Positions 1 through 46,390 of a DNA stretch of 64,000 nt are shown piece after piece. The notes under the pieces were generated by a model, which saw nothing but the letters and a program-made list of their open reading frames with translations, was not told the DNA's origin and ran no database searches. Within the stretch, counting starts at the first letter, position 1, and every line of letters starts with the position of its first letter. A program made the position numbers and the translations under genes. The DNA is taken from contig CM119372.1 of NCBI GenBank assembly GCA_051294905.1, positions 17,300,001-17,364,000 of the forward strand. Direction: 5' to 3'. This DNA is from Botryllus schlosseri. Its lineage: Eukaryota.

Positions 1-739
1 ATCATACAACGAATATGTTTTGTGGGTCGAATTGTTGTTCAGTGTCAAGTCTACCTGTTGAAACGTACATTAAAACAGCGCAATCCAATTAAAACCACGA
101 ATCTATTTTCATTTCGTCACATACAGAAAAATAAATTTAATTTCCCAAAACATACTTGTAACCAATCGATTTCATTAAACATACAACACCATAATAGCAT
201 TTACTTTCTACAACATAGACATTCCGGTGTAGTCAAGAAATATTTTTATTAATCAAAATCATCGACTTCTGTTTACGGCGTTAGTGTGTGCATGTCATAT
301 ATGTGGGATCCGTATTAAAATGGACACGACGCGACTGAATGTAAGGAGATAGAAGTCTATCGCATAGATTTACATGTGGTCTTCGCTACGGTTTCAAAAA
401 AACTAATCATCTCTTTTGCATTGATCTAGACCGAGCAAGTTAGTTAATGGCCATGATTGTGTTTGTCATATGCGAATGATAGGGTTACTGTCAAATCTAC
501 ATACAACAATCTTCTGACGATCATAATAGCAATTTCATTTTCCGCCCCTTCATAATTGTACAACTCGGTAACTACGTTTAACAAGACCAATCACACTACC
601 AGCGTTGAACACAAGATACCTACCCAAGTAAAAATATCATTCTGGTTTGGACAACTGACGTTTACCTGTGTAAAATTATCACTTGGAGGTCCACCGTTAC
701 CTAACTAAAATACCATTGTCCTTTGGAGATTTATCGTTT

Positions 740-1260
740 ACCCAGTGTAACAATCCCCTTTTCACTTGGAAATCTATTTTTGCCCTGGATAACAAACCTT
801 TTTCATTTGGAAATATATTTTTTCTCTTGGTAACAAACCTTTTTCACTTGGAAATATATTTTTTCTCTGGGTAACAAACCTTTTTCACTTGGAAATATAT
901 TTTTTCTCTTGGTAATAAACCTTTTTCACTTGGAAATGTATTTTTTTTTCTCTGAGTAACAAACCTTTTTCACTTGGGAATATATTTTTTCTCTGGTTAA
1001 CAAACCTTTTTCACTTGGAAATATATTTTTTCTCTGGGTAACAAACCTTTTTCACTTGGAAATATATTTTTTTCCCTGGGTAACAAACCTTTTTCGCTTG
1101 GAAATATATTTTTCCCTGGGTTACAAACCTTTTTCACTTGGTGATCCGTCGTTTACCTGAGTAAAAATATCATTTTCCTTTGGGGATCTGGCGTTTACCC
1201 AGTGTAACAATACATTTTCTCTTGGTCATCTAGCTTTTCCTAGAGTAACAAAACCATTTT
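740..1260. repeat. ~42-bp minisatellite (GTAACAAACCTTTTTCACTTGGAAATATATTTTTTCTCTGG), about 9 good plus several degenerate copies
   Basis: Tandem units read directly; mirrored at about 3643-4163. Confidence 0.93.
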
Positions 1261-2518
1261 TATTTTGAAATCTGACAACCACACCGACAATTTGATATTT
1301 TTGTATTTTCTTGCAGCGAACAGCGACAAAATATACACCAACAACGACTCCGATACATTTGTGCAATCGCATATTTACTTGTGTTGGTGCATCCCATCAA
1401 AATCATCGGTTACCCACATGCAATGTGCTCTTGTATATCGAAATGTATGTTTGGGAAATTGGACAATAGGTTTCGATAGGTCTGTGATGTCCGGGTTCGT
1501 GCTTTGGATTTTCCAGAGTCAAAATGTCTGAATAAAACACCTCCTCGACGATGGTTGGTATGTGGATAACGGTGTTCGGAAAACGGTTGGATTTATGTCA
1601 CCCATCGCGATAACAATTCCAGGTCGAGTTTTCCCCCGCGCGTTTACTATATTGTGTCTTTATTGGTCAATGTATGTCTCGACATTCAGTTTGAAATCGG
1701 AAACCCTGATAAGTATGTAACCGGATCCGGATATCAACTCTGAATCGATAAACCAATGAACAATATTCAAAGTAAACATGTTACACCCTGTGTTTCCACG
1801 AAAAAATACCATCCAGACATACGTCGCGCTTGTTTGCCCACACCAGTATATGCGTAAATGGAGGTGTGTGACATTGCATGCAATGTGTTGGTATACAAAC
1901 ATCGATCCACAGACATTATCATAGCCGGTAGTTTTGATGTAGATCGAATGTCATCACACCCGATAACAATACCAATAAGCCACATTGCAATGACTCTGAG
2001 TCCGCGCTATGACATCGATATCTCGACACCGTTCACTGATTTATTCGATGGTGTTATCGCGCTGTAACATTACATGATAGTCATGACCCTATCTGCAGAC
2101 GGACCACCCAGATCAATTGGATACATCGGTCAATATCCGTCGTGTTGTCGACACCGAAGTTTTCTGCTGCAGCGTTTGACCAATGTGAACTATCGAAGTA
2201 CGGGTGCTCGAAATGATTGCGATCAGTCTTTCAGTCACGATGCATGGATGTCGCTACTCCCACATAACGACTCCAGATAAATATCGCGAAAATCTCGGAC
2301 TGATACTGTGATCCAATAAGGTGTGTTTCTGTGGAATGAAGACTGCGATCGTACACCACAATAGAACACTACCTCGTGATTTCACACGCAATCATAAAAC
2401 ACACTTTCGTAAGGGTCTAGCTCGTCCGGTGACATTTCGAAACGGTCGTCACCACAAGAGATCGGTATCATTTTGAAAAGACATCGTCACAAGGCTATTG
2501 ACGTCGATTCTGTTGGTC

Positions 2519-2800
2519 ATGTCAATCCGTTTCAAAATCCGCCGTTTTTCAACTCCCCGCACCATAGTGTTACGACACAGACAGGAAGCGTCGGTGGAAA
2601 TAATAAAACACGGAAAGCACACTTTGGTGTTATTTGACATGGATTTTACACCCGACGAACCTTACATTCGAGCGATGCATTGGAATGACGCTTGTATTAT
2701 TGACGTAGAAGGAACAGAAATGTATCGATTTATTGGTTTCGTACATATCCAACAAAAACCAGGGTATGTGATTGTGCGTGGTTCGCATATTCGACTGTGA
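2519..2800 (+). CDS. Small hypothetical ORF (93 aa from the ATG) in the palindrome spacer
   Basis: ATG at 2519, uninterrupted, protein-like composition (MSIRFKIRRF...GYVIVRGSHIRL); no recognised domain. Confidence 0.25.
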   Translation: MSIRFKIRRFSTPRTIVLRHRQEASVEIIKHGKHTLVLFDMDFTPDEPYIRAMHWNDACIIDVEGTEMYRFIGFVHIQQKPGYVIVRGSHIRL

Positions 2801-3642
2801 ACGCTCTATTGGTATATGCTGTATAGTTCACTTTCACCGTCGTGCGAATAACCCATGTTACGGTTCGATGTTTGTGTGTCTGTATGTCACGCTTCAGATT
2901 GACTCAGAGTCATTGCAATGTGGCTTATTGGTATTGTTATCGGGTGTGATGACATTCGATCTACATCAAAACTACCGGCTATGATAATGTCTGTGGATCG
3001 ATGTTTGTATACCAACACATTGCATGCAATGTCACACACCTCCATTTACGCATATACTGGTGTGGGCAAACAAGCGCGACGTATGTCTGGATGGTATTTT
3101 TTCGTGGAAACACAGGGTGTAACATGTTTACTTTGAATATTGTTCATTGGTTTATCGATTCAGAGTTGATATCCGGATCCGGTTACATACTTATCAGGGT
3201 TTCCGATTTCAAACTGAATGTCGAGACATACATTGACCAATAAAGACACAATATAGTAAACGCGCGGGGGAAAACTCGACCTGGAATTGTTATCGCGATG
3301 GGTGACATAAATCCAACCGTTTTCCGAACACCGTTATCCACATACCAACCATCGTCGAGGAGGTGTTTTATTCAGACATTTTGACTCTGGAAAATCCAAA
3401 GCACGAACCCGGACATCACAGACCTATCGAAACCTATTGTCCAATTTCCCAAACATACATTTCGATATACAAGAGCACATTGCATGTGGGTAACCGATGA
3501 TTTTGATGGGATGCACCAACACAAGTAAATATGCGATTGCACAAATGTATCGGAGTCGTTGTTGGTGTATATTTTGTCGCTGTTCGCTGCAAGAAAATAC
3601 AAAAATATCAAATTGTCGGTGTGGTTGTCAGATTTCAAAATA

Positions 3643-4163
3643 AAAATGGTTTTGTTACTCTAGGAAAAGCTAGATGACCAAGAGAAAATGTATTGTTACA
3701 CTGGGTAAACGCCAGATCCCCAAAGGAAAATGATATTTTTACTCAGGTAAACGACGGATCACCAAGTGAAAAAGGTTTGTAACCCAGGGAAAAATATATT
3801 TCCAAGCGAAAAAGGTTTGTTACCCAGGGAAAAAAATATATTTCCAAGTGAAAAAGGTTTGTTACCCAGAGAAAAAATATATTTCCAAGTGAAAAAGGTT
3901 TGTTAACCAGAGAAAAAATATATTCCCAAGTGAAAAAGGTTTGTTACTCAGAGAAAAAAAAATACATTTCCAAGTGAAAAAGGTTTATTACCAAGAGAAA
4001 AAATATATTTCCAAGTGAAAAAGGTTTGTTACCCAGAGAAAAAATATATTTCCAAGTGAAAAAGGTTTGTTACCAAGAGAAAAAATATATTTCCAAATGA
4101 AAAAGGTTTGTTATCCAGGGCAAAAATAGATTTCCAAGTGAAAAGGGGATTGTTACACTGGGT
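3643..4163. repeat. Mirror copy of the ~42-bp minisatellite
   Basis: Reverse complement of 740-1260. Confidence 0.93.
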
Positions 4164-7100
4164 AAACGATAAATCTCCAAAGGACAATGGTATTTTAGTT
4201 AGGTAACGGTGGACCTCCAAGTGATAATTTTACACAGGTAAACGTCAGTTGTCCAAACCAGAATGATATTTTTACTTGGGTAGGTATCTTGTGTTCAACG
4301 CTGGTAGTGTGATTGGTCTTGTTAAACGTAGTTACCGAGTTGTACAATTATGAAGGGGCGGAAAATGAAATTGCTATTATGATCGTCAGAAGATTGTTGT
4401 ATGTAGATTTGACAGTAACCCTATCATTCGCATATGACAAACACAATCATGGCCATTAACTAACTTGCTCGGTCTAGATCAATGCAAAAGAGATGATTAG
4501 TTTTTTTGAAACCGTAGCGAAGACCACATGTAAATCTATGCGATAGACTTCTATCTCCTTACATTCAGTCGCGTCGTGTCCATTTTAATACGGATCCCAC
4601 ATATATGACATGCACACACTAACGCCGTAAACAGAAGTCGATGATTTTGATTAATAAAAATATTTCTTGACTACACCGGAATGTCTATGTTGTAGAAAGT
4701 AAATGCTATTATGGTGTTGTATGTTTAATGAAATCGATTGGTTACAAGTATGTTTTGGGAAATTAAATTTATTTTTCTGTATGTGACGAAATGAAAATAG
4801 ATTCGTGGTTTTAATTGGATTGCGCTGTTTTAATGTACGTTTCAACAGGTAGACTTGACACTGAACAACAATTCGACCCACAAAACATATTCGTTGTATG
4901 ATTTGTCACTGGTGTGTAAAGGGTTAGGAATTTTTTGAATGATAATATCTACTAGCTGTTTTGTTGTGAGGGCGATCATGTGATGACTCAGCACTTTTCG
5001 TTAGCAAAGTAGATTGATCTATGTGAAAGATGTAAGGACCGTGACTAGAAAACATATGTACTTTGCTGTTGGGGTACTGCTATGGCATTGACATAACCTT
5101 CTGGGAGTGAGTATGCTTTTCTTTCACGAAAGTTTACGTGACTCCGTTGTAATAAATTTGTGTTAACTAAACTCGGATGGATACCACAATTGTGCTGGAC
5201 TTACACATGGTATTCGCATACTGTGCACATATACAAACTTTTGTGTAAACAACTCTCATGTTTCTGTTAGTACTAGTTCTGTGTTGAACTATTTGATTAT
5301 TAAGATACATGAACACCCATTCAGACAATAAAGGTCTTGTGATATCGAAACAGTTTGTAGAGTCTACCCAACCATTCTTTAGTTTCGTAATGCGAGAATA
5401 TCGAGTAAAGTTAATTACTTCGTGCGATGTTAATATCCTTCGTACTTTTGTAAGAGTTGTGGAGTAACATACAAAGTAACTAGTTGACACAAACAAAATA
5501 TTGAATGACCGCTAACGCATTGAATTCATAATCCAAGAGGGTGAAATTTGTTTACTGTTAAACTAACATAACTCATATCCAACAAAACAGATACAATCCG
5601 ATGATGTGATGTTGGTCAATATCCATTTTGTAAAGATTGAGTAAATCCTCCTCCGTCAGGTGGGTGTGATTCAAATCAATAGCATGTTACACATAAACAT
5701 CATTTGTATTGACGGTGATATTGTGAAGATGATGCCGCAACAACACAACAAGTAATATTTTGTATCGGGTGTTTGTACTTTAGGAATAGCATAGTGTGCG
5801 ATATTTTGGATATGTGTGCACGGTTGTAAACTACGGTTGTTCTTGGGTCTTGCGTCGAGTAAATTAGAAATATGTCTAGAATTCAAACACATCCAAGTAA
5901 TTTCTTTAGCGACTATGATTACATCTACTTTGACGAGAGGAAATGGAAAAATTCAAATGGATACTACTGACGAACACAAAGTGCAAAATGGTTTTATCAG
6001 ATTTAGGTGTAGGATATCTTTTCGATTTCTTTACCAGAGTGTGTTTTACAAATAATTCCAGTTCACCTAACTATAGGATACATTTGGCAAACATCGTGTA
6101 AATTGTTTCTTTGTGATGGTAACGACTTTCGGCGGCTTAGTTTCACGTCGGGAATTATTATTTGAGGGTTCAAAAACAATCAATACTACAAATGAACAAC
6201 AATACAAAACACGTTTAGTGAATTATAGTGTAGCAAGTACTTCCTCGATATTACGATTGTTGTGCACCAGACATTTCTAGCTGATTCGAATGCATCTAGC
6301 AAACATATTCCAATTTACTTTTGTAATGATCAAAGTCTTAGAGTGCGACCTCGTGATATTTTACATGTAGCATGTAATATAGAAAGTGTGAGCGGAGTTG
6401 AGTATTAATCGTGTACTTGGTGTAGTGCTTTGATATCAAAGAGATATTTTCGCCCTGTGTAATGTTTCAATTCTCTGTTGGGAATTCCGACAGTAACGAC
6501 ATTGATGTAAAATCCTCACCCGCGGTTATTGTAAGTGAATCCTAAACATCGCAACAGTCGGTATGGAAATCGAACGCGTGCGTACTTTTAGATAGGTGAC
6601 ACTAACAAGTTTATTACATCCGTGAAATACTCTGAAACGTCGATTCGTGATTGTGTTAGCTATATTCATCTTCCATATCTGTGGACACAAAGATATCCCG
6701 ACTTTGGTTACAACTCACTCGAAACGAATTGTTGCGGGTAATCTAAAAAAGCACAAGTCGAAGACGAATGATTTGATTTCAATGAACTAAAAAAGTCCTT
6801 TTGTTTTGATGTTGGGTTTAATACAATTTGTACGACTATAACGAATCCGATTCCAAAAGTGCTATGTTACATTTAACAAAAAAGTTTGATGACTTGTATT
6901 CTGATATTGATAGATGTGAAAAGTAATATGACTAGTTTATAAAATCCCGATCATGTTCTTTGTCATGTCTGTGTTCAACAAATATGTGATCAAGTCTTAC
7001 CATTCGATATTAACTTTCGCAGTCGGCGTAAGCGATAATTTGTTGAAGTAACAATATCGACGAGTTCAATAATATTCTCCATCGATGTATTCGAATAATC

Positions 7101-8839
7101 TGTCAGCTACAAGTGGATTAAAAACTTGATGCCGTTTTGTGGTTAACTCAAGTCGGTGGTCGCGTTTGTGTTGATTTGAGGAATGATCATGACGAGTTGG
7201 TCGGGTAAATTAGATAATGTGGTTGTAACTATGACCGTAAAGAGTTGCTGACATTCCAATAAGACGAGTTGGTGGTATATGCCTAAAACCGAACTTGATA
7301 TGATTGTTGGTTGTAGTGATTACTTGCGTAGTCTTGACTACTTTTCGTAAGGATACTTTTTGTTTTGGTTGGGTAAGTTACAAACGGATTGACTTGACAA
7401 GGTTTTTTGTATTTTACTCTTTTGTGTATGGGAATCACTCGATTGCAACAAAAAATAACCTGATAGTTTGTTCAAGGTTTCGACAAATAGATTGAAATAT
7501 TCCGATTTAACTCATCGCGTCGCAACTTGATAACGGTATGCACAAGTGGTTGTCAAGATAGAAATATTTACAACAACGGGCGATATTTCATTGATTGATT
7601 CTATTGTGTGTAGTTACACATTAAAATATCGCGATAGTATTTACTGAAACTCTATTTGACAAATGGAAAACTCAGTCGTGAATAGAGTTGTAAGTTTCAA
7701 GGATTGTTTCAAAGTGTAATCTTGAAATGTGACTGGATCAAAGTTGGTAGTCATGTTTGTCAAACCTATTTCTATTCACACTATGTCAAGTCCAAATATT
7801 TCATTCTGGATTATTTGGATTTACCTTTAGTACATCTCGCGAATGGATTCCGATACCGTACTATAACATTCTTAATAATACGGGTTCGAGGGTTTTCATG
7901 ATAGAGTTGACGAGTGATAAGATGCGTGTTTTTGTTAAGAGTTTGATTTCATGTTGATAAAGACAATAACTGTATAATGCACATACTTGTGATTCTTGAT
8001 TCTTGTAGAATAATAGTTGGTATTGATTCTATAAGTGTGAAAACAGCGGCGTGGAATGTGCGAATAATTCGATGTAGCTGAAAGTCGGCGTCAGTAATAT
8101 TCGGGTTATGGTCGAATCCAAAGATCACGAAAAGATTTCTCAAAATAATTAGAATTGTACCGAATTAACACATTCAAATACGAATCAACTCGGTTTGTGT
8201 AGTGAATTTCATTTCGAGTTGACAAATTGATACATTGATTGAATATTCTCATAATTCTTATCGTGCAACTAAAGTCAGCCGCTGTTCGAAGTGTCAAAAC
8301 ATATAGCGACCACCAGAAAGTGTCAAATTGTTGGTTTTCGAATCACCGTCTGCGACGGCTCTGTGACAAACTAATTACCGAAATATTACCTTGTGAGCGA
8401 TCGGTATGTCTTTAACACCAAGTCACTAAAAATGGTTATACCCGAGACATTATCTTGTTAGCGATCGCGGGATTTGCAATCTATTTTACACTTTTTGAAG
8501 TGTTAATTTACGAGCGCGGTTATTTGTTGGTTGCTTTTCGTGTCGCTGCTGAATACTGAATACTCCTGAATGTAATAGCGCTGACTGGATTAGTGTAATC
8601 GATAGTAGCACGCGGCTGGCCGTGAAACAATTCCACACGCAGGTCATTCGGAATATAGGTCGCACTGCTTAATCCTCACAACAAGCCACGTTTCCGTTTG
8701 TGCGGTTATTGTTGGCGACTCGTACATATTCAACACCGCGTGAGAGATGTCTGAAAGTGCGAATCACGACCGCACCCATAAGAACACATGGTGAATCACC
8801 ACAGATACCGTAAGAATACACGACAGACACATTTATCGT

Positions 8840-9135
8840 CGTTAGCATGTCACCGCACGTATACCAAAAACATTAGCATGTCACCACGAGTTTCGCGTTA
8901 TCATGCGACTGCACCCATAAGACGAAAACGTTAGCATGTCACCACGAGTTTCGCGTTATCATGCGACCGCACCCATAAGACGAAAACGTTAGCATGACAC
9001 CCCCGCCATAAGACGAAAACGTTAGCATGCCACCCCCACCATAAGACGAAAACGTTAGCATGCCACCCCCGCCATAAGACGAAAACGTTAGCATGCCACC
9101 CCCGGTTTCTCGTTAGCATGCCACCCCGCCCATAA
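8840..9135. repeat. Subterminal tandem array: two ~59-bp then ~33-bp units (GTTAGCATGCCACCCCCGCCATAAGACGAAAAC)
   Basis: Units read directly; lies just inside the putative ACTACT terminus. Confidence 0.9.
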
Positions 9136-9173
9136 GAGACAATGGCGCATCACGAGAGATCTATATAACTACT

Positions 9174-9452
9174 GTCGTCAAGGCTCATGTATCGCATGCT
9201 CATGTGTCACCATGCTCAAGTGGCACTTATTAAATTATCACCATGTTAATGTGTCCCTATGCTCACGTGTATCCATGCTCGTGTGTCCCTATACTTATGT
9301 GTCCCCATGCTAATATGTCCTCATGTTAATATGTCCCTGTGCTGATATGTCTACATGCCCACGAGTCGCCATGACCAAAAGTCGCTATGCTCAAGTGTCG
9401 CATGCTCAAGTGTCGCTTGCTATTGTGTCGCATGCTAATATGTCCACGGACC
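9174..9452. mobile_element. Tandem-repeat terminal arm (~15-16-bp ATGCTCATGTGTCGC-like units) of a MULE/foldback-type element
   Basis: Degenerate short-period array ending sharply in TGTCCACGGACC; the left side is truncated at the putative Polinton terminus. Superfamily assignment is inference. Confidence 0.5.
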
Positions 9453-9503
9453 TAATTTCAGGTACCTTTAATTATGCGTACATAATACTAATGCATATTT
9501 AAT

Positions 9504-10757
9504 ATGACTAAACGGAAACTAGACAAGAAGTCAATCGCATTTTCTTTGGCAATTTCTCTGGATAACATTCCTGGACCACATTCGACCCTTAAGCATTCAG
9601 AGATAGTAAGGTCGTGGAAAAGGCGTAGGAGAGCTGCGTCTGCAAAGAATATAGAGATTGTTCGATGTCTGTGGAAGAATAGCTCCGAATATCAGGGCCA
9701 ATGTGATTACGTTTTTCCGCCAACATCATGAAATAAACACCGACAACTCTATTTATTCGATTGAGTCACCTGAAGTTCGTGGAGCAGAGAGAAATTCAGA
9801 GCTGACGTCGGATGTGATGCAAAAGACACCATTTACGGACAATGATTCGAAATACGATGAAGTCATAGAACCTGTTTTTTGTTATTGCTAGCGACCGCAT
9901 AAAGGAGAGTTTATGGTGCAATGCGATGATTGCAAATTCTGGTTTCATCCTGCATGCGCTTTCCCATCGGACAGTAAATAAATCAAATTTGATCGTAATA
10001 AATGGCGTATTACGTCTTTAGGTTGTGGACGTGGTAAAGACCATAACACTGGCAAAAAAATCGCCGGGTTTACACTCACGCACCGCAGCGCACTGAAAAT
10101 CCTAATGTCGACAAGGAGTTATTTCCTCCCAAGTCTCCTAACGGTGCAGGGGTCACAGAAATAGATGGAATGTTAAATCTTTCAGATGATGCTTCTCTGA
10201 ATCCTAATGTCACTGAAGATGATGCCATGGAAAAAGATGGAATATTGAATTCTTCATATGATGCTTCCCTGAATCGCAATATCACCGAAGAAGATATCAC
10301 AGAACATGGTAATCAATCCGATGATGCTTCTCTGAATCCTAATGTCACTGAAGATGATGCCACGGAAAAAGATGGAATATTGGATTCTTCATATGATGCT
10401 TCCCCGAATTGCAATATCACCGAAGATGATATCACAGAACATGGTGGAATATTAAAACAATCTGATGACGCTCCTCTGAATCCTAACGTCACTGAAGATG
10501 ATGCCACGGAAAAAGATGGAGTATTGGATCCTTCATATGATACTTCCCTGAATAGTAATGTCTCTGAAGATGATATCACAGAACAAGATGCATCTGATCA
10601 TACAAAATCGTTTCCAGATTCCCGGATGACGTCGAATTCTAAACCAGTCGCGCACAGCGAAATTAATGAAGCGTGGGTGAGTGATTCCGCAATCGAATCA
10701 GCGTGTACTCAATGGTGGTGTGGATACTCGAAAAATCACGTGACCGTCACGCCCTGA
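9504..10757 (+). pseudogene. Disrupted MULE-like transposon gene: transposase-type C-terminus, PHD finger, acidic repeats and a possible Ulp1-protease start
   Basis: 9871-9965 translates PVFCYC*RPHKGEFMVQCDDCKFWFHPACAF, a PHD finger with an in-frame TAG. Upstream KRRRRAASAKNIEIVRCLWK resembles MULE transposase tails; downstream EAWVSDSAI resembles Ulp1 WLNDEVI. Stops and frameshifts are present. Confidence 0.6.
10180..10600 (+). repeat. In-frame tandem repeat, about 3 x 126-135 bp (SDDASLNPNVTEDDATEKDGILDSSYDAS...)
   Basis: Visible in the DNA and in ORF 10170..10757; each unit is a dimer of a related ~23-aa subunit. Confidence 0.9.
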
Positions 10758-11673
10758 TACCTTTTATGACTTTGTTATTGTCGATCCGTCTACAGCACTA
10801 ATTAAAGGCAGAGTCGCTATTGGTCTTTGTTGATTTTGACTGTGTTTCATATCGAGATGGGTGACAGGATTTAGTATGGTATATTTTGATGCTGTCATCT
10901 AGCACTGTACCAAGTTTCAAGGCTGAGACTCAATGACTAGCGTAGTAATTTCGCTGTCAAAGTCGAGTATTTGGTAGATGAGCGCGCACCGATATATTGC
11001 CGACTTTGATAACGGAATTACCATGCTAATGCGGCTTCGCGAAGTGTGTTATCGAATAAATCATTGGCAAAAAATGACCGCCACATGTTGGCCGAAACAA
11101 TCAATATATATATTACCCATTGTCCGCAGGCGCGGGATAGTCCTGCGCTCACGATCTGAAGTTACCTTCTTCCTCTACCAGGAGAACTGATCACGTGGAC
11201 AGAGAGCGGATGAAAAATTAATTGCAATATGTGCAATTACCAATATTATAGAAACAAATTCAATCCTGGATTAGAATTTTTTCGCGCTTTGCGCGAATAC
11301 CCACACACGCACCGGCATCCCTCACCCATTTTTATACCCTTCACTCGGATTGGATCGAATGTAAAGGATATTATTTATATTCGCGAGAATCTGTTTTAGT
11401 TTGAAACCGAAAAATGGAGAAATAAATAATTAGCAACGTTGTCTGAAGTGGAAAAGATTGTAGAAAACGTGATGAATTTGTCATTTGTTAAGTTTTCTCG
11501 TAATTTCATTGGTGTTAATCAATGCACCCCCTCATATTTTACGATTTATGCCATAGGTTTGACCTAAATTACTAAACTAGTGTATTTTCGTCGATCTAGT
11601 GTTTTTTAGTTGGAAAATCTAGTGTTTTTACACGCACCCCAAGTGGCAGCACTGGTAGTACCTTTCACATATG

Positions 11674-12392
11674 CGACACCAATGGGTTGTGGATTCGAGT
11701 CCGACCGAGGTAGACTCCAGACTGCCTATTCAAGCATTGGAGCTTTATCGAGGCTGCTCCTCGCCATCCGATCCATGTCAGCGAAAAAAGTGATCCGTGT
11801 TATAAGTAGGGCTGGGCAATATCGAGTACCTGAGTGATTCGATTCTCAATCAAATATTACGCTTCGAGTCGAGTCGAGTATTCGAGTATCCCTCATTATG
11901 ACGTCAAATCAGAATGTACTAAGTCGAAGTTCAAATATGTACCTTTTATGCTACCACAAAGAACATAATGCCTGTTGGCCGTCAAATAAAAGATACCTTG
12001 GTATTTTTTCGACCATACCGATTTCATTGCACTTCTTGACAATGTTGTGGGTTGATCATGACTTCGGAAATGTGCATGTTATTTCCAGTAACGTTCGAAG
12101 CTTTGTACCATGTCTCGTATTTTGCGACACGGCCAATCAAGGTTTCAAGGCTTCCTCAGTGGAAAACAGCATCAAACTATAATTATCGTTAGTAAATTAA
12201 CTTTCAGTTGCGAGGAGCATATAATTTCAGTACTCGAAAAAATCGTCTTTTACTACTCGACTCGAATCATTAAAATTAATACTCGATTCAGATTCGAGTA
12301 CTCGAATCATTGTGCCCAGTCCTAGTTATAAGCCGCCTGCAGCTCAGAATTTCTTCTGGGCATTATATATAACACACTGAACAGATAATAAA
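11674..12392 (+). mobile_element. Diverged tRNA-derived SINE copy split by a hAT MITE
   Basis: CGACACCAATGGG..GGATTCGAGTCCGACCGAGGT matches the head of the SINE at 41778-42050; sequence resumes after the 12325-12332 TSD. Confidence 0.6.
11807..12324. mobile_element. hAT MITE
   Basis: Terminal inverted repeats (TIRs) TAGGGCTGGGCA / TGCCCAGTCCTA; perfect 8-bp TSD GTTATAAG; subterminal TCGAG repeats. Confidence 0.9.
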
Positions 12393-13961
12393 TGGACGGG
12401 GGTTCGATCCAGAATTCAGAAATGATGACGTCGAGGTATAAGCCCATAATTGACCACAGGACAAATATTTATACTTTTGGACTCTTCTTCACGTCAAATC
12501 ATTCAAAGATGCGTCTGGAGTCATTCCAACACTGCTACAAACCGCTTTGAAAGTAGCGCAAATAAACGCAACACGACATTGAGTAAACTGACTTCAGTAG
12601 ACCGTGACCATTCTGTGGACTAACACTGGGAGACAATGGATTGTTCACTCCCATCTCTATACCACTAGCATAACATCGTCTGAGTCGTTTATCGGCGTCG
12701 AAAGTACATGACGCCGTGAGCTTAACACGTACGACGTAGGGCCGTCGTTCGTGTGCTGAGATCGATGGATACGAGTCGATTTAGGTGGTACCTTGGCCGA
12801 TAGAACCATTACATATATTCGTTCCTGAATCGCCTTATATATGTACCATTTGTGGGTAGGATGTATACAGGTAAAGTGATGAAATTACCCGCGGAGGAAA
12901 ATGAGCTATGGTGGCCATGCTACTGCGAGGTCTTTCGAAGTCCCAGAGGCAAAACGCCATGTTGCTGTACGGAAAATGCTCGACGCCTAACGCCAGTAAA
13001 TCAGCTTCCGCTATGGGTTTAACCCCGTGTCACGCCTCCTTGGTTGCATTGAATTGCGAATTCGGATGCTAAAATTTACAAGCATATTGAGCAACGTAGT
13101 TTTGAATTGCCAGAATATTAGCCATGAACGGTGTTATCTGTAATGCCAGTTGACATGAACGTTCAGGTTTCTCCAGAATGCTTTGCTCTACAATGTTTAA
13201 TATTAGTGTTAGTCTGGCTTGGGGATATGATAGTATGGGCTAGGATTAGGCCAGCTTGGGTAAAGGTCGGCTTGATTTAGGATTTGGGTTAAGATCCAGA
13301 TCGACCACACTATTGACGCAGTATAGTCGCGAGTGAATTCATATTATCCAGGATTAGTCTAACATCTATATTATTTCCATGACCTAATTGTTTTAAAGAG
13401 CACGGCGGGTGTTTATGAGGTCATTTTGGGTTAGCCATTGCTAAAAGTCAGATCTGATGTTCCTGGGAAGTTTTAGCTGCACGAGGAGCTGAAAAATCTA
13501 GATATTACCTATCATATTTCTGAGTTTTTCGCGGGGAAATTTATAATGCGGCGGCATTATTGACGCAATTTTTTCATCCTATCTACGGACTCTCCACAGG
13601 ATAATATGTCGTTTGAGCAGTGTTCTTAGCCTCTTGAGAGCCCGTACCCCCCGAGCAAAATGCTCGGAACTAAACAAAAGAATATATTGCACGTAAAAAA
13701 ACTCCGGGTAATACGGACAATTCTCCGCTCAATTCAGACACAGGTTCGCAATTCCTATCGCTAGATCATTTATATGACACATTGATTATTTCGTTCTTAT
13801 CAAGATGAGTGATTATGGCAAAACAATGACGATCCATGCAGTAACGATTGACAATTAACTCATATACGGAGGGCCAGCTTATATTACGTCCTTCCAACTT
13901 TACAATAAATTATTTTCTGACCGGCTTAAAGACTTATGCCTTTCATTCTTACTGTTTAGTG

Positions 13962-15477
13962 CAGAGGTCTCAAACACGCGGCCCGCGAGAGCATTTTGTG
14001 CGGCCCGCGACGGCATTTTGGAATTTCAAGCATTCACCAATATATTCAAGTGCCATATATCTTTTTTACATATAAGAACTTGAAGTTCGTGCTAAAACTA
14101 CTATAAAATCACCGAAATCTCAATAAACTTCACTATCACATCACTTTTTAAAAAGCTACGGTAGAAGATCAACTATCACGTCACATTTCTAGTTCATAAT
14201 GATAAGACATAACCCGTTGATGATTCGCGATTGAAAATTGTGATTCGGTTTTATGCGACCTTCTCGTTACTCGATTTCGGATTGACTGGGTGATTAATTA
14301 AAAATGACTCGAGTTGAGTCGGGTTAAACGTCAAAATCACAGAAGGACTTGCGACTCGGAACGGTGACTTGGTTGGTAATCCTACGGGCGCAACAATCTA
14401 TGATACTGTCATGGGGAATAGTAATATATCAAAAGGTCGTAGCTTGCGTTGCGTAGGGTACATAGCTATCTAATCAGGTCAGTATAGCAGCCATTGATAT
14501 TCTGTGACCCTCGTGACGTATAGTTGATTACATGCTGGGTGTTGTTTGTTCCCTTTGTCCATGTGATTATCGGTGGCGCACGCTCTGCAGCTGTAACACC
14601 AATGAATTATTCGCCGATTGGATATTTCAATTCCAGGGTCCGTAGACTCCATCGAGGTACGAAGCACCACATCAGGGTGTACGAGATGCATTGTGGAATT
14701 AGGCCTATATGCTGTGGAATATATTCTTGGCCAATTTATTCAACTGGAAAATAGTCCTCGCGCTACGCGCGATTTTCTGTGAATGGGCTTTCTGATTTTA
14801 ATATAGGAACCATCCAGATATCGTGTTCTAAATGGACAAGGGCTACGAGAAATCTTATCGGAAGCACAAGGGGTACGATCGCTATAAAGTTTGAGAAGCA
14901 ATGTTATTACTATGGATCAATAATGATTATATTTAAGTTGTTATTGGTTATTGATATGTTCCAATAATAATCGAAGGAAAAATCTAACGCTGATTTAGTT
15001 TGACTTTGGCAATAACAGTAACAACAGTCGATACTTATCACGACTATGTCAAAACCAGGTATGGCTCGCACAAATGCTCTGATATCAGATCATCGTTCGG
15101 TAGATTTTAAAATATTCTACATAAGATTGTGGCACGGTAAAGGTCCACTAGCTGCAATATTATAACCCGACAGTTTGACGATGTCATGATCATGACGCAT
15201 CCTCTCGCATGACTCATTAATTAAAAAAATTATGCCCAGAACAAAAACAATTTTATTCAAATATTTGAAAATGTGATTTTTTCCGTGCCGAGCGAGAATA
15301 GTTTAATAGTAAATTACATTTCCACGATGTTTGTGGAATGCCTATATGCAAGGTCCCGTCAAATAAGTCCTACTTGGAAATTATACATTGAATATCCCTA
15401 TTATTGATGCTGCGGCCCGCGGTGTCATCAAAAACTAGGAAATTGGCCCGCGAGCACATTTGAGTTTGAGACCTCTG
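13962..15477. mobile_element. Non-autonomous hAT (Charlie/Buster-type), family A
   Basis: TIR CAGAGGTCTCAAAC; perfect TSD GTTTAGTG; GCGGCCCGC subterminal motifs; related copies at 17990, 30346 and 34870. Confidence 0.92.
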
Positions 15478-16010
15478 GTTTAGTGGAATAATTTAACAAA
15501 TATAGATATATATAGCTATAAATGCCGTTCAGTTCTTGCCGCAAGGCTCAGTACTGTATTGGAAAACTTAGTTACTGCACTATTTAACCACATGCGTGTG
15601 TTACAAAATAATATAGTGTATAGTAGCCTATTTATTGTAACGTGTAGTACAGTATAATACTAACCTGAAGGTATTACTCATGAGCGTTTTATGAGATCAG
15701 TGACAATTGCAATTCATTCGTTACTCAACAGTAGACCTACGCTCTTTTTAATGCATTTGGGCATTACTATGAAACGAGCAATTAATATTCCGCTTAATTC
15801 AAACCAATCGACGAATCCGAATCCTTCATCTCTACAAATCGCTGTCAGATATTGGTTACTGGTCAGGTGATACTACATAATGAACGTCTTGATAGAATCG
15901 TAAGACTATACTTTTTGCGATTTGTATTTACTTTAGCTGATTTAGCCGATTTCCTTTAGCTGTGTATAGCACGCATGTTAGTCGACAAAACGGTGAATTG
16001 ATATATAGTG

Positions 16011-16470
16011 CAGTGGTTCTCATCCTTTTTGTCTTCGCGGACGCCATTTCGTCCATTAATTCTCCGACGGGCCCCCTCAAGGTCAGTTCAATTATCACGC
16101 AACCGTCATCTGTCTTGTGTAGTTATTACCTGTAGCTTATTGTAAACTGCAGTGATTGCGCTTTTTGTGAGATTACCATCGTACTATCGTGTGGAATATG
16201 TGAAGACTTTTATTGTTTCAAAGCGAATCCGCATAATCGGATGTCTGCAGCAGCATGTGAGAAACTAAACTCGAAATGGTAGGTCGTGTCGTGGAGAAAT
16301 GATAGGTCGTATCGTGGAGAACTGGTCTCATATGAACGAGAGTAGAATATCCACTTTCACGAAGATAGGTGGAGGTGAAAGTAATAATGTCGCGCAACGT
16401 TTCCGACGACGCATTTGTGTGTGACGGTAACATGATGCACCAAAATTGAGACACAGACTTTTAAATGAAC
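16011..16470 (-). mobile_element. hAT Buster/Charlie remnant (terminus plus transposase C-terminal scrap)
   Basis: CAGTGGTTCTCA terminus at 16011; minus-strand FTSTYLRESGYSTLV resembles the Buster FxxTYLCESGFS motif. Confidence 0.55.
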
Positions 16471-16690
16471 ATCGCCTACAGCTTAGTCATTGCTATCAAA
16501 AGCTAGGTTGTCCGTAAATTGGCCACTCCTGTTTTATAAGTGTATTTGTATATTCCATAGATTATTGTATATTATAATTGGTTATTTATCTGATGTTTAT
16601 TATAAAGAGGTAAAAACTCTGAACTGCTGTCTCGGGCGAGAAGATCGAAGAATTGTTAGCATTATATACCATGGGCGCTACACTAGTTCC

Positions 16691-17272
16691 ATGATGTATT
16701 TACTGGAATTCCTTCATAGATGCCTTGAGTATTTGTGGCTGGTCCACAAATCAGGCAAATTAGTGTTCCTTGGGCTTAGCGACGCGGGAAAAACCTCGCT
16801 ACTCCAAATGTTGGAGAATAAGGAAATTATGACCCACAAACCTACATTGCATCCAACTGTGCGGAAACTGACAATTGGAGATAAATCATTTACCACGTTC
16901 GAAATTGGTGGCCATTTTCTATGGAGAAGAAGATGGGAGGATTATTTTCCGGATATTGATGGAATTGTGTATCTTGTTGACGCCGCTGACAAGGGATGCA
17001 TGGATGAAGCGAAAAAGGATCTTGACAGTTTGCTGGCATATGGGCAGGTTGCACATGTACCTATTCTTGTTCTTGGGAATAAAACTGACATACCTGACGC
17101 AGCAAGTGAACGTGCCCTCTTAGCATTTTTCCAATTACATACAACTGGCAAAGGTAATGTTTCCAGAGATAGCCTTGGCGGCGCAATGCCAGTCGAGCTA
17201 TTCATGTGCTCCGTTCTTAACAAGCAAGGTTACGAGGATGGATTTCGGTGGCTGAGCCAGTATATCAATTGA
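16691..17272 (+). CDS. SAR1: Sar1-family small GTPase (COPII), divergent intronless copy, 193 aa
   Basis: KSGKLVFLGLSDAGKT (G1), PTLHPT (G2), FEIGGH (G3), YFPDIDGIVYLVD, LGNKTD (G4), TTGKG, ELFMCSV..QGYEDGFRWLSQYI are Sar1 hallmarks. ATG 16691 gives canonical length; the ORF track's upstream extension is non-ATG and unalignable. Confidence 0.92.
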   Translation: MMYLLEFLHRCLEYLWLVHKSGKLVFLGLSDAGKTSLLQMLENKEIMTHKPTLHPTVRKLTIGDKSFTTFEIGGHFLWRRRWEDYFPDIDGIVYLVDAADKGCMDEAKKDLDSLLAYGQVAHVPILVLGNKTDIPDAASERALLAFFQLHTTGKGNVSRDSLGGAMPVELFMCSVLNKQGYEDGFRWLSQYIN

Positions 17273-17648
17273 AAGCAAAACAGGTCATACACTGTACAGT
17301 GCCGTGATGTACAATTGTACATCCGTAACACTATTGTACCATTTGCATTTCACGACTATATCATTCCATGTTTAAATCATGAGAGTTCTTTATGTTCCTG
17401 TCTGGTAGCGTAATGCGCAATCACAAGTCGAGGGTTTTGCTCCAGGTGTGAAGTTTAGCCTAAATCTCGTGTATTTAATTGTTGCTGCTTAACAATTGTA
17501 TTCTGGCAACCCAAAATTAATCCAATACTGCGTGAAAGATTGTTTACAAGTGTAAAAGTGAAAGTGTGTAGTGAGGGAATTAAAACATTTTTTTAGATAT
17601 TTGATAATTTGCTTGTGTGTAATGGAATTTCTGTAATCACATAGCCAG

Positions 17649-20193
17649 TAGGGATGGTGTGAACGTGAGGTTCACGTTCGCGTTCTTTGTGTGTAGACCT
17701 CAGAAATTTAGAGGCTCACGTTCACAAACGAACCTTGGTAGGTTCTTCACTGTGAACCTTTTTCATATATTACAATTTTCACTTCATTATAAGATATTTG
17801 GTTGAAATTTATTGCATTTTAAGTGCGGGCCACTATATATGCATGGCGCTGGAAGCATTCATAAATCAACACTAAACGAGGATGTACCTTGACAATCTCA
17901 AAATTTTCCTTACTTTGTTACAAAAGTTTGCTCGAATATTTAGTGACTCTCTGCCGAGTGCTTGGCGCGCAATCATACAATATCAAGAGCAGAGGTCTCA
18001 AACTCAAATGTGCTCTCGGGCCAATTTCCTAATTTGTGATGACCCGCGGGCCGCAACATCAATAAATAGGGGTATTCAATTTATAATATGCAACTAGGCG
18101 TTATTTAACGGCACCTTGCAGACAGGCATTCCACAACCATCGAGAAAATGCAATTTACTATTATACTATTCACGCTTGGCACGAACAAATCACATTTTCA
18201 AATATTTGAATAAAATAGTTTTTGTGCCGGGCATAATTTGTTGGGGAATGAGTTTAGACATCATGCGAGAGGCGCATGATGATATCGTAAAAGCTGTCGG
18301 ATTGTAATATTGCAGCTATTGGACCTTTGAAATGCCACAATTTTAAGTGGAATATTTTAGAATTCACTAAAGATTGATTTGATATCAGAGCATGTGAGCG
18401 GTGTAGCCTAATCGGGTTTTCTGATATACTCGTGATAAGTATAGGCTATTGTTACTGTCATTGCCAAAGTCAGCGTTACCAGCGTTAGGTTTTCTTCGAT
18501 TAATATTGAAACAGATCAATAACAACTTAAATATAATCATTATTGTTCCATAGTTAGCATTGTTTCTTAACCGTTTTAGCGATCGTGCCGCTTGTACTTT
18601 TAATTGGATTTCCAGTGACCCCTGTCGATTTTCAACACAATTTCTGATGGGACCTATAAAAATCAGAAATCCCATTCACATAAAATCACGCGTAGCGCGA
18701 AGAATATTTTCCAGTTGAATAAATTAGCCCAGAAAATATTCCAGAGCATATAGGCCAATTTCCACAATGCATCTGGTACCCCCTGATGTGGTGCTTTGTA
18801 CCACGAAGGGGATACGGACCCCTGGAATAGAAATGACTAATCGCCGAAGAATCCATTGGTGTTACAGCTGTGGACTGTGGAGCGTACCACTACCTTACTC
18901 GCCACCGATAATAACATGGACAGTGAGAACTAACAACATCCAGGATGTAACCAAGTATAGGCCTACGTCACGGGGCCACAGAATGCCAATGGTTTCCATA
19001 CAGACCCGATTAGATTTCTATATTCTATATACCCTACGCAACGCAAGTTACGGGCTTTTGATCTATTACTATTCCCCACGACAGCTTCCTAGATTTTTGC
19101 GTCCGTAGGATTGCCAAGTCACTATTCCGAGAGGCAAGTCCTTCCCTGATTTTAACGTTCGACCCTACTCAACTAGAGTCATTTTTAGTTTATCTCCCAG
19201 TCAATCCAAAATCGAGTAATTTGACGAAAGGTCGCACCAAACAAAATCACAATTTTCAGTCACGAATCATCAACGGTTCATGTTTTGTCATCATGAACCT
19301 GAAATGTGACGTAGTAGCGATCTTCCGCTGCATGGTAGATTTTAGGAAGTGATGAAACAGTGAAGCTTGTTTAGATTTCAGGTTTTTGTAGTAGTTTTAG
19401 AGTCAACTTTAAGTTCCTAAATTTAAAAAAAGATATATTGCACTAGAATATATTGTCGAATACTTGAAATTGAAAAATGCCTTCGCGGGCCGCACAAAAT
19501 GTTATCGAGCGCCGCATGCGGCCCGCGGGCCGCGTGTTTGAGACCTCTGATCAAGAGCATAAAACACTACATGTGGGTAGTCAGCGAATGATGCTTATTT
19601 TCAACCAATCACTGAAATTTATAGTGTTGTCGGATGTAAAAAATCTAGCAGGCGTACAAGGTCAATATTGATTTCACATGTTTATTGTATCATAAAAACC
19701 AAATCCGTGCGATTCGAGTGTTGGCTACTGCTATAAATTGTTAATGGATTAATATCGGTAGCAAGTGTAGAAACCCGTTTTACACTCTGCTCAATATCAA
19801 CGTAGCAATCCTCAAACGCCGAATACATTTTCCGGTCAGGCCTAAGGCGTAAGCTTATATTCCCAAGCATGTCCTCATCGAAATGGGTGGCAAAGCAACG
19901 GAAGATAAAGAGATTTTATGGGATTATTATATCGTTTGATTGCCCCAATTGATACATTTGGCGACGTTTAAAGCGTCAATATGAACTTAGGCATTGTGGC
20001 ATCATATCGACCGAGCCGTATCTAGGTACCGTGTACATTAATATAGGCTATCACTTCATCGAAATGTAGTGTTGTAATTAGCAATATGACGTCACGTGAC
20101 GTCATGAGGTTCACGTTCGCGTTCACACAGAACCTTTCAAAACGGTTCGTGTTCACACAAACCTGAACCTTTCAGAGGTTCACACTATCCCTA
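17649..20193. mobile_element. hAT MITE family B, carrying a family A insertion
   Basis: TIR TAGGGATGGTGTGAAC / GTTCACACTATCCCTA; degenerate TSD ATAGCCAG/AAAGCTAG; matches the uninterrupted copy at 39272-40264. Confidence 0.85.
17990..19549. mobile_element. hAT family A copy, inverted relative to 13962-15477
   Basis: TIR CAGAGGTCTCAAAC; perfect TSD ATCAAGAG. Confidence 0.92.
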
Positions 20194-21960: not shown

Positions 21961-22084
21961 GTGTAGCCAAAAACGTATGCGACACAGACAGGTCCCGTAC
22001 GAAGAAGCGTTCTCTCGTTTTTTGCGAGCCTGGTCGAAAGCGTTCATGCCAGACTTGTACAAACTACTGAATTTTCAAAAAGCG

Positions 22085-22740
22085 CAACTAGAACTAGAAC
22101 TAGAACTACTCAATTTTTAAGACTCGCAACTACAACTATAACTAGAACTACCCAATTTTCAAATTCCGCAACTAGAACTAGAACTAGAGCTACTCAATTT
22201 TTAAGACTCGCAACTACAACTATAACTAGAACTACCCAATTTTCAAATTCCGCAACTAGAACTAGAACTAGAACTACTCAATTTTTAAGACTCGCAACTA
22301 CAACTATAACTAGAACTACCCAATTTTCAAATTCCGCAACTAGAACTAGAACTAGAACTACTCAATTTTTAAGACTCGCAACTACAACTATAACTAGAAC
22401 TACCCAATTTTCAAATTCCGCAACTAGAACTAGAACTAGAACTACTCAATTTTTAAGACTCGCAACTACAACTATAACTAGAACTACCCAATTTTCAAAT
22501 TCCGCAACTAGAACTAGAACTAGAACTACTCAATTTTTAAGACTCGCAACTACAACTATAACTAGAACTACCCAATTTTCAAATTCCGCAACTAGAACTA
22601 GAACTAGAACTACTCAATTTTTAAGACTCGCAACTACAACTATAACTAGAACTACCCAATTTTCAAATTCCGCAACTAGAACTAGAACTAGAACTACTCA
22701 ATTTTCAAATCTCGCAACTAGAACCATAACTAGAACTAAC
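22085..22740. repeat. 84-bp tandem array (dimer of two 42-bp subunits rich in AACTAG), about 7.5 near-identical copies
   Basis: Period 84 read directly (22085, 22169, ...); about 3 related 42-bp units at the other end (23716-23835). Confidence 0.95.
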
Positions 22741-22920
22741 GAAATTTAAATATCGGCAACTAACTAACTAATACACAACTACTAAATTTAATTCTCAATC
22801 AACTCATTCATTTTTATTGTATTCGAATTCGGCGTTCCAGCCTTCCACATGAACGTCGGTACAACGAAATTACTAAAAAATCAGACAGACAGAATTATTC
22901 TGTAATCAGTACAGGATAAA

Positions 22921-45214: not shown

Positions 45215-46390
45215 TTAGAAATAAGGATAGTCATGTTTGAAATGAGGTCAGTCTCCTGTTTGAAATGAGGATAGTCATGTTAGAAATGAGGATAGTCTTG
45301 TTTGAAATAAGGATAGTCGCTATATTCACGACAAGGTCACTTTCTGTACCAGGCACGATTTTCCAGTGGTAACACAGTCCGAACACATCCCAGACACGAT
45401 GTCCGAACACGCCCCAGACACCATGTCTGAATGACAACACAGGCCAAACGCATCTATGACACCGTGTCCTAATGGCAGCACATGCCGAACACACCTCAGA
45501 CATGATGTCCGAACACGCTCCAGACACGATGTCCTAGTGTAAACACAGTCCTAACATTCCCCAGACATGATGTCCAAACACGCCCCAGACACGATGTCCA
45601 AGTGTTAACACAGGCCTAACACGCACAAGACACCATGTCTGAATGGCAAGAAAGACCGAACACGCCCCAGACACGATATCCGAGTGTCAACTTAGTCCGA
45701 ACACAACACAGACACCATGTTTGAATGGCCGACCACGCCCCAGACACGATGTCCGATTGGCAGCACAGGCCGGAAACACCCCAGACATGATGTCCAAACA
45801 CGCCCCAGACACGATGTCCGATTGGCAGCACAGGGCGAACACACCTCAGACATGATGTTCAAACACGCCCAAGACACGATATCCGAGTGTCAACACAGGC
45901 CTAACACGCCGCAGACACCATGTCTGAATGACAACACAGGCCAAACGCATCTCAGACACCGTGTCCTAATGGCAGCACATGCCGAACACACCTCAGACAT
46001 GATGTCCGCCCAGACACGATGGTAATAGGGTTAGTCATGTTTGAAATAAGGATAGTCATGTTTGAAATAAGGTTAGTCTCATGTTTGAAATAAGGAGAGT
46101 CATGTTTGAAATAAGGAGAGTCATGTTTGAAATGAGGTCAGTCTCGTGTTTGAAATGAGGATAGTCATGTTAGAAATGAGGATAGTCTTGTTTGAAATAA
46201 GGATAGTCGCTATATTCACTATAAGGTCACTTGCTGTACCAGGCTCGATTTCCCAGAGGTAACACAGTCCGAACACATCCCAGACATGATGTCCGAACAC
46301 GCCCCAGACACGACGTCCGATTGGCAACACAGTCCCAACACCCCCTACACAGGATGTTAATAAGGTTAGTAATGTTTGAAATAAGGTGTT
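45215..46390. repeat. Left arm array: ~20-22-bp TTTGAAATAAGGATAGTCATG blocks alternating with ACACGCCCCAGACACGATGTCCGA-based blocks
   Basis: Read directly. Confidence 0.9.

What the first reader, a model, noticed from the sequence alone, without database searches (positions are those of the whole stretch)
1..9173. Near-perfect multi-kb palindrome inside a Polinton-like end: candidate snap-back defective Maverick
Seen: arms of at least 2002 bp with no net indel and identical mirrored ORF translations, even though the sequence itself is stop-ridden; 4.27 kb further right lies an ACTACT terminus with a subterminal tandem array. Established: Polintons end in AGT-AGT-type motifs, make 6-bp TSDs and are thought to replicate by protein-primed strand displacement through panhandle intermediates. 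Inference: if the symmetry continues left of the window, the element is a ~13.4-kb hairpin with ~6.3-kb arms made from one end copied back on itself, analogous to copy-back defective viral genomes, and possibly still mobilisable in trans. A fold-back assembly or read artefact is a serious alternative.
Basis: partly seen in the sequence, partly recalled or inferred. Interest (0 to 1): 0.7.

Follow-up and report, generated by a model that had tools for sequence, protein, structure and literature searches.

The report
Giant hairpin transposon, Maverick-like end
This is a real mirror-image stretch of DNA belonging to a very abundant, gene-less repeat family in a marine animal genome; its one visible end looks like that of virus-like Maverick transposons, so it is probably a large hitch-hiker on them, although its other end lies outside the window and could not be checked.

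Summary
Arms 1-2002 and 2901-4902 are 100% complementary around an 898-bp loop; ACTACT ends at 9173 beside a subterminal array. The palindrome is neither a one-off nor a chimeric-read artefact. The stretch is a very high-copy repeat in three studies, and ORFs called on two independent, diverged ENA contigs each cross one loop junction. The fold-back is therefore old and inherited by a family. This copy differs from the family at 132 of 1681 sites, yet its arms are identical, so symmetry is renewed within a copy (unless assembly equalised them). No Maverick gene or remnant was found. Maverick affinity rests on one 6-bp motif. The TSD, left end, 13.4-kb size and helper were untestable (no genome held). 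Best reading (0.6): a non-autonomous, ~93% palindromic Maverick satellite replicated and integrated in trans. A cut-and-paste foldback element is not excluded. The scan has already reported this kind of element at least 10 times in the same genome (unchecked notes).

The parts
1..2002 (+). Visible part of the left arm; cut by the window edge; exact reverse complement of 2901-4902
747..1260 (+). Internal 41-42-bp tandem array in the left arm (9.5 copies at 89% plus a degenerate tail)
1992..2002 (+). Inner end of the left arm: mini-hairpin GACTC-T-GAGTC (junction J1 at 2002/2003)
   Evidence: J1 crossed by P0003
2003..2900 (.). 898-bp loop; 44% GC; no self-structure beyond shuffles; no gene identified; itself high-copy
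2901..2911 (+). Inner end of the right arm: GACTC-A-GAGTC (junction J2 at 2900/2901); with 1991-2002 it also forms a 12-bp direct repeat with one mismatch around the loop
   Evidence: J2 crossed by P0002
2901..4902 (+). Part of the right arm whose mirror is visible
3643..4156 (+). Mirror copy of the internal 41-42-bp array
4903..9173 (+). Presumed outer right arm (mirror not in the window). Stop-ridden; weak 3-base periodicity at about 5250-7650 may be a long-decayed gene
   Evidence: membership of the arm is inferred
8849..9137 (-). Subterminal array: 10 CATG[AC]TAA-containing units in 58-bp and 33-bp periods
9168..9173 (+). Candidate right terminus ACTACT, the (AGT)2//(ACT)2 Maverick end motif
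   Evidence: motif from PMC8097293
9174..9179 (+). GTCGTC, candidate right copy of a 6-bp TSD (left copy not visible)
   Evidence: sequence only; untested
9183..9444 (+). 15-16-bp tandem array flanking the terminus; probably target DNA, not part of the element

Best explanation
One young copy of a very high-copy, gene-less DNA element built as a long hairpin (predicted about 6.3-kb arms, 0.9-kb loop, about 13.4 kb), with a Maverick/Polinton-type end, moved in trans by an autonomous Maverick. Shown: perfect arms, no intact gene, high copy number, both loop junctions shared with diverged copies, and arms identical within this copy although it differs from the family. Inferred steps: (1) an ancestral fold-back or template switch at the GACTC-N-GAGTC mini-hairpin duplicated one end. 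(2) Each single strand can pair into a near-complete duplex that shows an (AGT)2 origin, the racket/panhandle intermediate proposed for Polintons, so a helper's protein-primed polymerase copies it and its integrase inserts it with a 6-bp TSD. (3) One arm is rewritten from the other during this cycle (repair in the panhandle, or fold-back synthesis), which resets arm identity at or near each insertion.
For: 0 differences in 2002 bp; 95% upper bound on arm divergence 0.15%. Laying 1960-3640 on 4 runs from 3 studies placed 37,566, 3,313, 2,296 and 1,638 contigs, covered 30 of 30 bins in each run, and the share running on into unlike sequence was 0, 0, 0 and 0.01. Median inner-arm/loop depth was 4.0, 3.0, 2.0 and 3.4, i.e. 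at or above the twofold expected and not half. P0002 (ENA contig, 696 bp) aligns over window 3147-2815 at 94%: 82 aa in the arm and 29 aa in the loop, across J2. P0003 (ENA contig, 5531 bp) aligns over 1858-2100 at 78%, across J1. The window differs from other copies at 132 of 1681 sites. At 3 of the 12 listed inner-arm sites its allele holds 1.5-2.5% of X1 depth, and both arms carry it. The end motif equals the commonest vertebrate Maverick motif, linked in that paper to protein-primed jumping-back initiation (PMC8097293). The racket-like single-strand intermediate is described in PMC4196379.
Against: Only one end is visible, and ACTACT is common (29 times in the window). No Maverick protein remnant: 0 of 33 X-read frames reached a Pfam cut-off; PHROGs gave nothing better than E 0.019. 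Protein searches found only near-identical ORFs called on other copies or nothing. No helper was found in viral, metagenome or prokaryote collections. No single record spans both junctions, and no data here link the hairpin to the terminus 4.3 kb away except contiguity in the window. Summed contig depth is not a copy number (caveat). Intact vertebrate Maverick TIRs are 46-1,447 bp, far shorter. Internal tandem arrays in long arms are also typical of cut-and-paste foldback elements.
Confidence: 0.6

Rival explanations
1. A non-autonomous cut-and-paste foldback element (Galileo/FB type, moved by a P, MULE or other DDE transposase) whose ACTACT end resembles the Maverick motif by coincidence; arm identity kept by recombination between arms.
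For: Long arms with internal tandem arrays and no transposase are the defining look of Galileo non-autonomous copies (PMC3573991 passages). Other long-armed repeats lie in the same window (13960-19518 and 45198-51155). No Maverick gene remnant.
Against: Galileo TIRs reach only 1,260 bp, and the longest pair is 95.2% identical, against at least 2002 bp at 100% here. The end matches (ACT)2 exactly.
Confidence: 0.15
2. The hairpin is a real family feature, but the mirror does not reach a second terminus in this copy (partial, truncated or nested copy), or 4903-9173 is a separate neighbouring repeat.
For: The window starts inside the arm; nothing upstream could be read. Single-contig deletion variants exist (joints). 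Two ENA ORFs match 6016-6339 and then diverge from the window, so the outer arm is mosaic among copies.
Against: No break or foreign TSD was noticed between 4902 and 9173. Run X1 holds 0.84 of the sampled words of 1500-9400. Unchecked notes report same-genome elements of 13-14.6 kb with 6.3-6.8-kb arms.
Confidence: 0.12
3. The architecture is real, but the 100% arm identity comes from assembly or polishing that merged two slightly different arms, or from host gene conversion after insertion rather than from the element's own replication.
For: No read spanning both arms of this locus could be examined; one search used contigs of at most a few hundred aligned bases. Long palindromes are hard to assemble, and gene conversion keeps host palindrome arms alike (both recalled).
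Against: Both arms share alleles that are rare in the family, so neither was polished towards the family majority. This does not exclude one arm being overwritten by the other.
Confidence: 0.1
4. The whole palindrome is a fold-back chimera of library preparation or assembly.
For: Perfect identity and a position at the window edge.
Against: Both junctions occur in diverged copies in independent ENA assemblies. Arm depth exceeds loop depth in 4 of 4 runs. None of the 24 loose ends shown (of 806) lies at either junction.
Confidence: 0.03

Closest known systems
Autonomous Mavericks/Polintons with (AGT)2//(ACT)2 ends (Barreat and Katzourakis 2021, PMC8097293; passages read)
   Same: End motif ACTACT at the visible terminus; predicted 13.4 kb falls within their 12.7-24.6-kb range; terminal inverted repeats.
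   Different: No pPolB, integrase, ATPase, protease or capsid gene found. Inverted repeat at least 2002 bp and predicted 6.3 kb, against 46-1,447 bp. Very high copy number, against a median of 8 per genome. The passages I searched contain no 'non-autonomous' or 'nonautonomous' (0 occurrences).
Copy-back and snap-back defective viral genomes (review PMC13506859; passages read)
   Same: One end copied back on itself, nearly full-length self-complementarity, no coding capacity, dependence on a helper.
   Different: In those passages the copy-back and snap-back examples are RNA viruses. This element is DNA, integrated, inherited and amplified as a family with old, shared junctions. Derivation from a helper genome is not shown.
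Foldback-type cut-and-paste elements: Galileo and Drosophila FB (PMC3573991; passages read)
   Same: Long arms with internal tandem arrays; longest TIRs in non-autonomous copies; TIRs lengthened by recruiting internal sequence.
   Different: TIRs up to about 1.26 kb and 7-bp TSD for Galileo; here arms are far longer and perfect, and the end is Maverick-like.
Non-autonomous Polintons of Kapitonov and Jurka 2006 / Repbase (recalled; paper not held)
   Same: I recall gene-less Polinton derivatives being listed for zebrafish.
   Different: Their arm lengths could not be checked. If any is mostly palindromic, the novelty here drops to 'new member'.

Membership tests
Maverick/Polinton (autonomous) | Protein-primed family B polymerase gene | tested here: not met
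   No Pfam or PHROGs match in 33 X-read frames covering 1201-8900; applies to the visible part, and by symmetry to the predicted rest
Maverick/Polinton (autonomous) | Retroviral-like integrase, ATPase, protease, capsid genes | tested here: not met
   homology searches of four single frames gave only near-identical ORFs from other copies or nothing
Maverick/Polinton (any, including non-autonomous) | (AGT)2//(ACT)2-type end motif | tested here: inconclusive
   Right end ACTACT at 9168-9173 met; left end outside the window; the motif occurs 29 times in 64 kb
Maverick/Polinton (any, including non-autonomous) | 6-bp target-site duplication | not testable with these tools
   Left flank not in the window; no genome held
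Maverick/Polinton (any, including non-autonomous) | Terminal inverted repeats reaching both ends | tested here: inconclusive
   Inverted repeat of at least 2002 bp shown; that it reaches the termini is predicted only
Maverick/Polinton (non-autonomous) | Termini shared with an autonomous element in the same genome | not testable with these tools
   No genome; no match for end or arm patterns in viral, metagenome or prokaryote contigs; claimed only in unchecked notes
Non-autonomous mobile family | Many dispersed, diverged copies with the same architecture | tested here: met
   (many diverged copies; both junctions in other copies); dispersal over distinct insertion sites not shown
Copy-back/snap-back defective genome | Near full-length self-complementarity without coding capacity | tested here: inconclusive
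   4004 of the first 4902 bases are paired; 93% is a prediction
Copy-back/snap-back defective genome | Sequence derived from one end of an identified parental genome | not testable with these tools
   No parent sequence found in any collection searched
Foldback/Galileo-type cut-and-paste element | Long TIRs with internal tandem repeats | tested here: met
   41-bp array in both arms and a 33/58-bp subterminal array
Foldback/Galileo-type cut-and-paste element | Superfamily-specific TSD length and a cognate DDE transposase | not testable with these tools
   TSD not visible; no transposase inside

The most novel reading that the evidence does not exclude
A heritable, genome-integrated satellite of a virus-like Maverick: a roughly 13-kb, 93% palindromic, gene-less replicon that arose once by snap-back, outnumbers its helper, and rewrites one arm from the other in every replication cycle. 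The 0.9-kb loop may be a later insert into the centre of a once-perfect palindrome, since the inner arm ends are themselves a self-complementary 11-mer. The family would be a natural record of the single-strand panhandle intermediate that has only been proposed for Polintons.
Probability: 0.4. Interest if true: 0.75.

Novelty: new variant of a known kind. Interest (0 to 1): 0.52.

Why it matters
Polinton replication through a panhandle single strand is a model, not an observation (PMC4196379). A large family whose arms span almost the whole element makes it testable from sequence alone: if arms are reset at each insertion, arm divergence per copy should date insertions, as paired LTRs do, and should be far below divergence between copies. 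It would also show that large DNA virus-like elements have defective-interfering-style parasites that become heritable and abundant, and that multi-kb perfect palindromes are tolerated in an animal genome. This particular copy adds junction evidence but is cut by the window edge.

Tried and rejected
Own genome not held, so upstream symmetry, TSD and helper were not tested. Exact DNA patterns found nothing: terminal 20-mer in viral contigs and JGI metagenomes; inner-arm 20-mer in JGI metagenomes; subterminal unit in prokaryote genomes and viral contigs. Protein scan of viral contigs with frame 5302-7701: 5 pattern matches, 0 confirmed. Pfam on 12 ORFs and on 33 X-read frames (best E 0.00074, Cytomegalovirus gL at 19.4 bits against a cut-off of 25, taken as chance); PHROGs on the same 33. 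Only 4 single frames went to the large protein searches, so the other frames were not searched there. ESM Atlas on the 107-aa loop ORF: best score 0.85, low recognition, no lead. The 5302-7701 frame was not searched in the Atlas. Rfam 1-12000: 0 matches. A single-stranded-DNA-binding gene as reported in note e1-7884335 was not found here. Loop self-structure: z -0.5 against 20 shuffles. Degenerate continuation of the arms into the loop: not significant against control pairs (31 of 587 at best); rejected. Kinship of the 9174-9460 flank array with the subterminal array: 10-41 of 378 control windows reach the observed word sharing; not claimed. Earlier-finding look-ups by sequence, relatives and near place returned nothing, so I could not confirm that the same-genome notes describe this sequence family. 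Literature: 9 searches showed no description of a mostly palindromic Maverick derivative in the listings or passages read. Kapitonov and Jurka 2006 and Repbase were not available, and no supplements were read, so prior description is not excluded.
Full report
Observation. Self-comparison shows bases 1-2002 and 2901-4902 to be exact reverse complements with no mismatch or gap, around an 898-bp loop. The symmetry runs off the left edge of the window. Each arm holds a 41-42-bp tandem array (747-1260 and 3643-4156). The region 8849-9137 is a subterminal array, ACTACT lies at 9168-9173, and GTCGTC and a 15-16-bp array follow. No frame in 1-9173 stays open for more than 114 codons. If the mirror reaches the terminus, the arms are 6273 bp and the element is 13,444 bp and 93% paired, starting at about -4270. 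That is arithmetic only: no genome is held for this window.

Is it an artefact? The stretch 1500-9400 is held in part by 22 of 24 listed runs from 12 studies, including four studies of organism A. I laid 1960-3640 (43 bases of left arm, the loop, and 740 bases of right arm) on four runs from three studies. They placed 37,566, 3,313, 2,296 and 1,638 contigs and covered 30 of 30 bins each. In X1 the contigs were spread over identity classes (14,702 at 99% or more; 12,662 at 95-99; 8,681 at 90-95; 1,521 under 90). This is a very high-copy, diverged repeat family; the summed depths cannot be turned into a copy number. Median depth of the inner arm over the loop was 4.0, 3.0, 2.0 and 3.4. The share of laid contigs that run on into unlike sequence was 0, 0, 0 and 0.01, and none of the 24 loose ends shown (of 806) lies at a junction. 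One X2 contig of depth 2156 covers 2799-2920, but with only 20 letters on the arm side it does not meet the tool's 31-letter rule for bridging.

Firmer junction evidence came from protein search. phmmer of the X-read + frame 1201-3639 against 1.84 billion representatives gave 3 hits, all singletons called on ENA contigs with no Pfam family, i.e. ORFs called on other copies. P0002 aligns at 94% from 3147 down to 2815: 82 residues in the arm and 29 in the loop, across the right junction. P0003 aligns at 78% from 1858 to 2100, across the left junction. So both junctions exist in diverged copies in independent assemblies. No record spans both. The fold-back is ancestral to a family, not an event that made this copy, and a chimeric read is very unlikely.

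Arm identity. This copy differs from other copies at 132 of 1681 sites (40 listed). At three of the twelve listed inner-arm sites its allele makes up only 1.5-2.5% of X1 depth, yet both arms carry it, and the arms differ by less than 0.15% (95% bound). One arm was therefore copied from the other after this lineage diverged from the bulk of the family. Whether that happens in the element's replication, by host gene conversion, or in assembly cannot be told without long reads over this locus.

Junction anatomy. Both arms end inward in GACTC-N-GAGTC, a 5-bp stem with a 1-base loop. Only 18 of 14,282 positions in the element end in such a structure, or 131 of 14,282 allowing loops up to 6. Two readings follow (inference). 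Either the mini-hairpin supplied the microhomology or pause for a fold-back template switch, or it is the centre of a once-perfect palindrome into which the 898-bp loop was inserted; the loop is flanked by a 12-bp direct repeat with one central mismatch. No loop-less joint was among the 15 of 23 joints shown. The loop has no unusual structure, and its ends are not significantly complementary.

Genes. Thirty-three X-read frames over 1201-8900 gave no Pfam match at cut-off and no PHROGs match better than E 0.019. Four single frames searched in the large protein sets gave only ORFs from other copies or nothing. The 107-aa loop ORF had no Atlas lead; Rfam found nothing. A weak periodicity at 5250-7650 (chosen post hoc) may be a decayed gene. 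Nothing here shows that the arm descends from a Polinton genome.

Maverick affinity. PMC8097293 (passages) gives (AGT)2//(ACT)2 as the commonest vertebrate end motif, 6-bp TSDs, TIRs of 46-1,447 bp, sizes of 12.7-24.6 kb and a median of eight copies, and ties the terminal repeats to protein-primed initiation. PMC4196379 (passages) restates the racket-like single-strand model. The visible end fits, but ACTACT occurs 29 times in the window, and its position next to the subterminal array is only modest support. TSD, left end and helper were untestable; pattern and protein scans of viral, metagenome and prokaryote contigs were blank. As an autonomous Maverick it fails the membership test; as a non-autonomous derivative it is plausible but unproven. 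Galileo-type foldback elements share long, internally repetitive arms and gene loss, but their TIRs reach about 1.26 kb (PMC3573991 passages). Copy-back and snap-back defective genomes (PMC13506859 passages) are the functional analogy. From PMC3014272, PMC6431247, PMC5499653 and bioRxiv 10.1101/2024.01.15.575659 I read passages only; none described a mostly palindromic Polinton derivative.

Earlier notes. After stating my reading, I found at least 10 notes on 12-18-kb palindromic, Maverick-ended elements in the same genome; several claim hundreds of copies, 6-bp TSDs and gene-carrying Mavericks with the same ends. They gave me the paper PMC8097293, the word 'satellite', and the lead that some members have almost no loop. 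They are unchecked, and look-ups by sequence returned nothing, so I could not confirm that they share this sequence. Their predicted-size agreement (about 6.3-kb arms, about 1-kb loop) is a lead, not support.

Mechanism and verdict. Most likely (0.6) this is a young copy of a non-autonomous hairpin element with Maverick ends. A displaced single strand folds into a near-complete duplex showing the terminal origin; a helper's protein-primed polymerase and integrase copy and insert it; and one arm is rewritten from the other on the way. The palindrome, the family and the shared junctions are shown; the helper, TSD, left end and replication steps are inferred. Rivals: a cut-and-paste foldback element (0.15), a partial or composite copy (0.12), arm identity from assembly or host conversion (0.10), and a full artefact (0.03). 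Novelty: a new variant of a known kind, with the caveat that Kapitonov and Jurka 2006 and Repbase could not be read and nine literature searches cover only an open-access library. Interest 0.52.

Noticed in passing
window 9880-10757 (+): Broken gene in the right flank: a PHD finger (Pfam PF00628, E 2e-7) followed by acidic 72/135-bp coding repeats with strong 3-base periodicity; possibly a decayed DNA-transposon gene (my guess).
   Followed up: partly
window 16487-17272 (+): Intronless 261-aa frame with an Arf-family GTPase domain (PF00025, E 3.5e-47); looks like a SAR1 retrocopy (name recalled). It lies inside the inverted pair 13978-15477 / 17990-19518.
   Followed up: partly
window 13960-19518: About 1.5-kb inverted arms at 80% identity whose outer ends both begin CAGAGGTCTCAAAC, hAT-like by recall; may be two opposed copies or an element that captured the GTPase frame.
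   Followed up: no
window 45198-51155: Element or cluster with about 660-bp inverted ends at 85% identity beginning AGGGTTGGTTCGATTGG and complex 21/24/41/65-bp internal arrays; foldback-like.
   Followed up: no
window 22062-22789: 84-bp tandem array, 8.3 copies, 97% identical, open in one frame for 260 aa.
   Followed up: no
window 1960-3640: Of the 40 listed differences from other copies (of 132), 10 of 19 C>T/G>A sites are CpG positions that this copy retains and many other copies have lost (binomial p 0.023): this copy's lineage may have spent less time methylated.
   Followed up: partly
window 6016-6339: Two ENA ORFs (P0005, P0006) match this stretch at 76-77% and share a different continuation after 6339, marking a rearrangement point or a segment shared with another repeat.
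   Followed up: partly
window 5250-7650 (+): Weak 3-base periodicity (p 0.006; stops 41/47/79 by frame, 3 of 2000 shuffles; region chosen after looking) that may be a long-decayed gene with no identifiable relative.
   Followed up: partly
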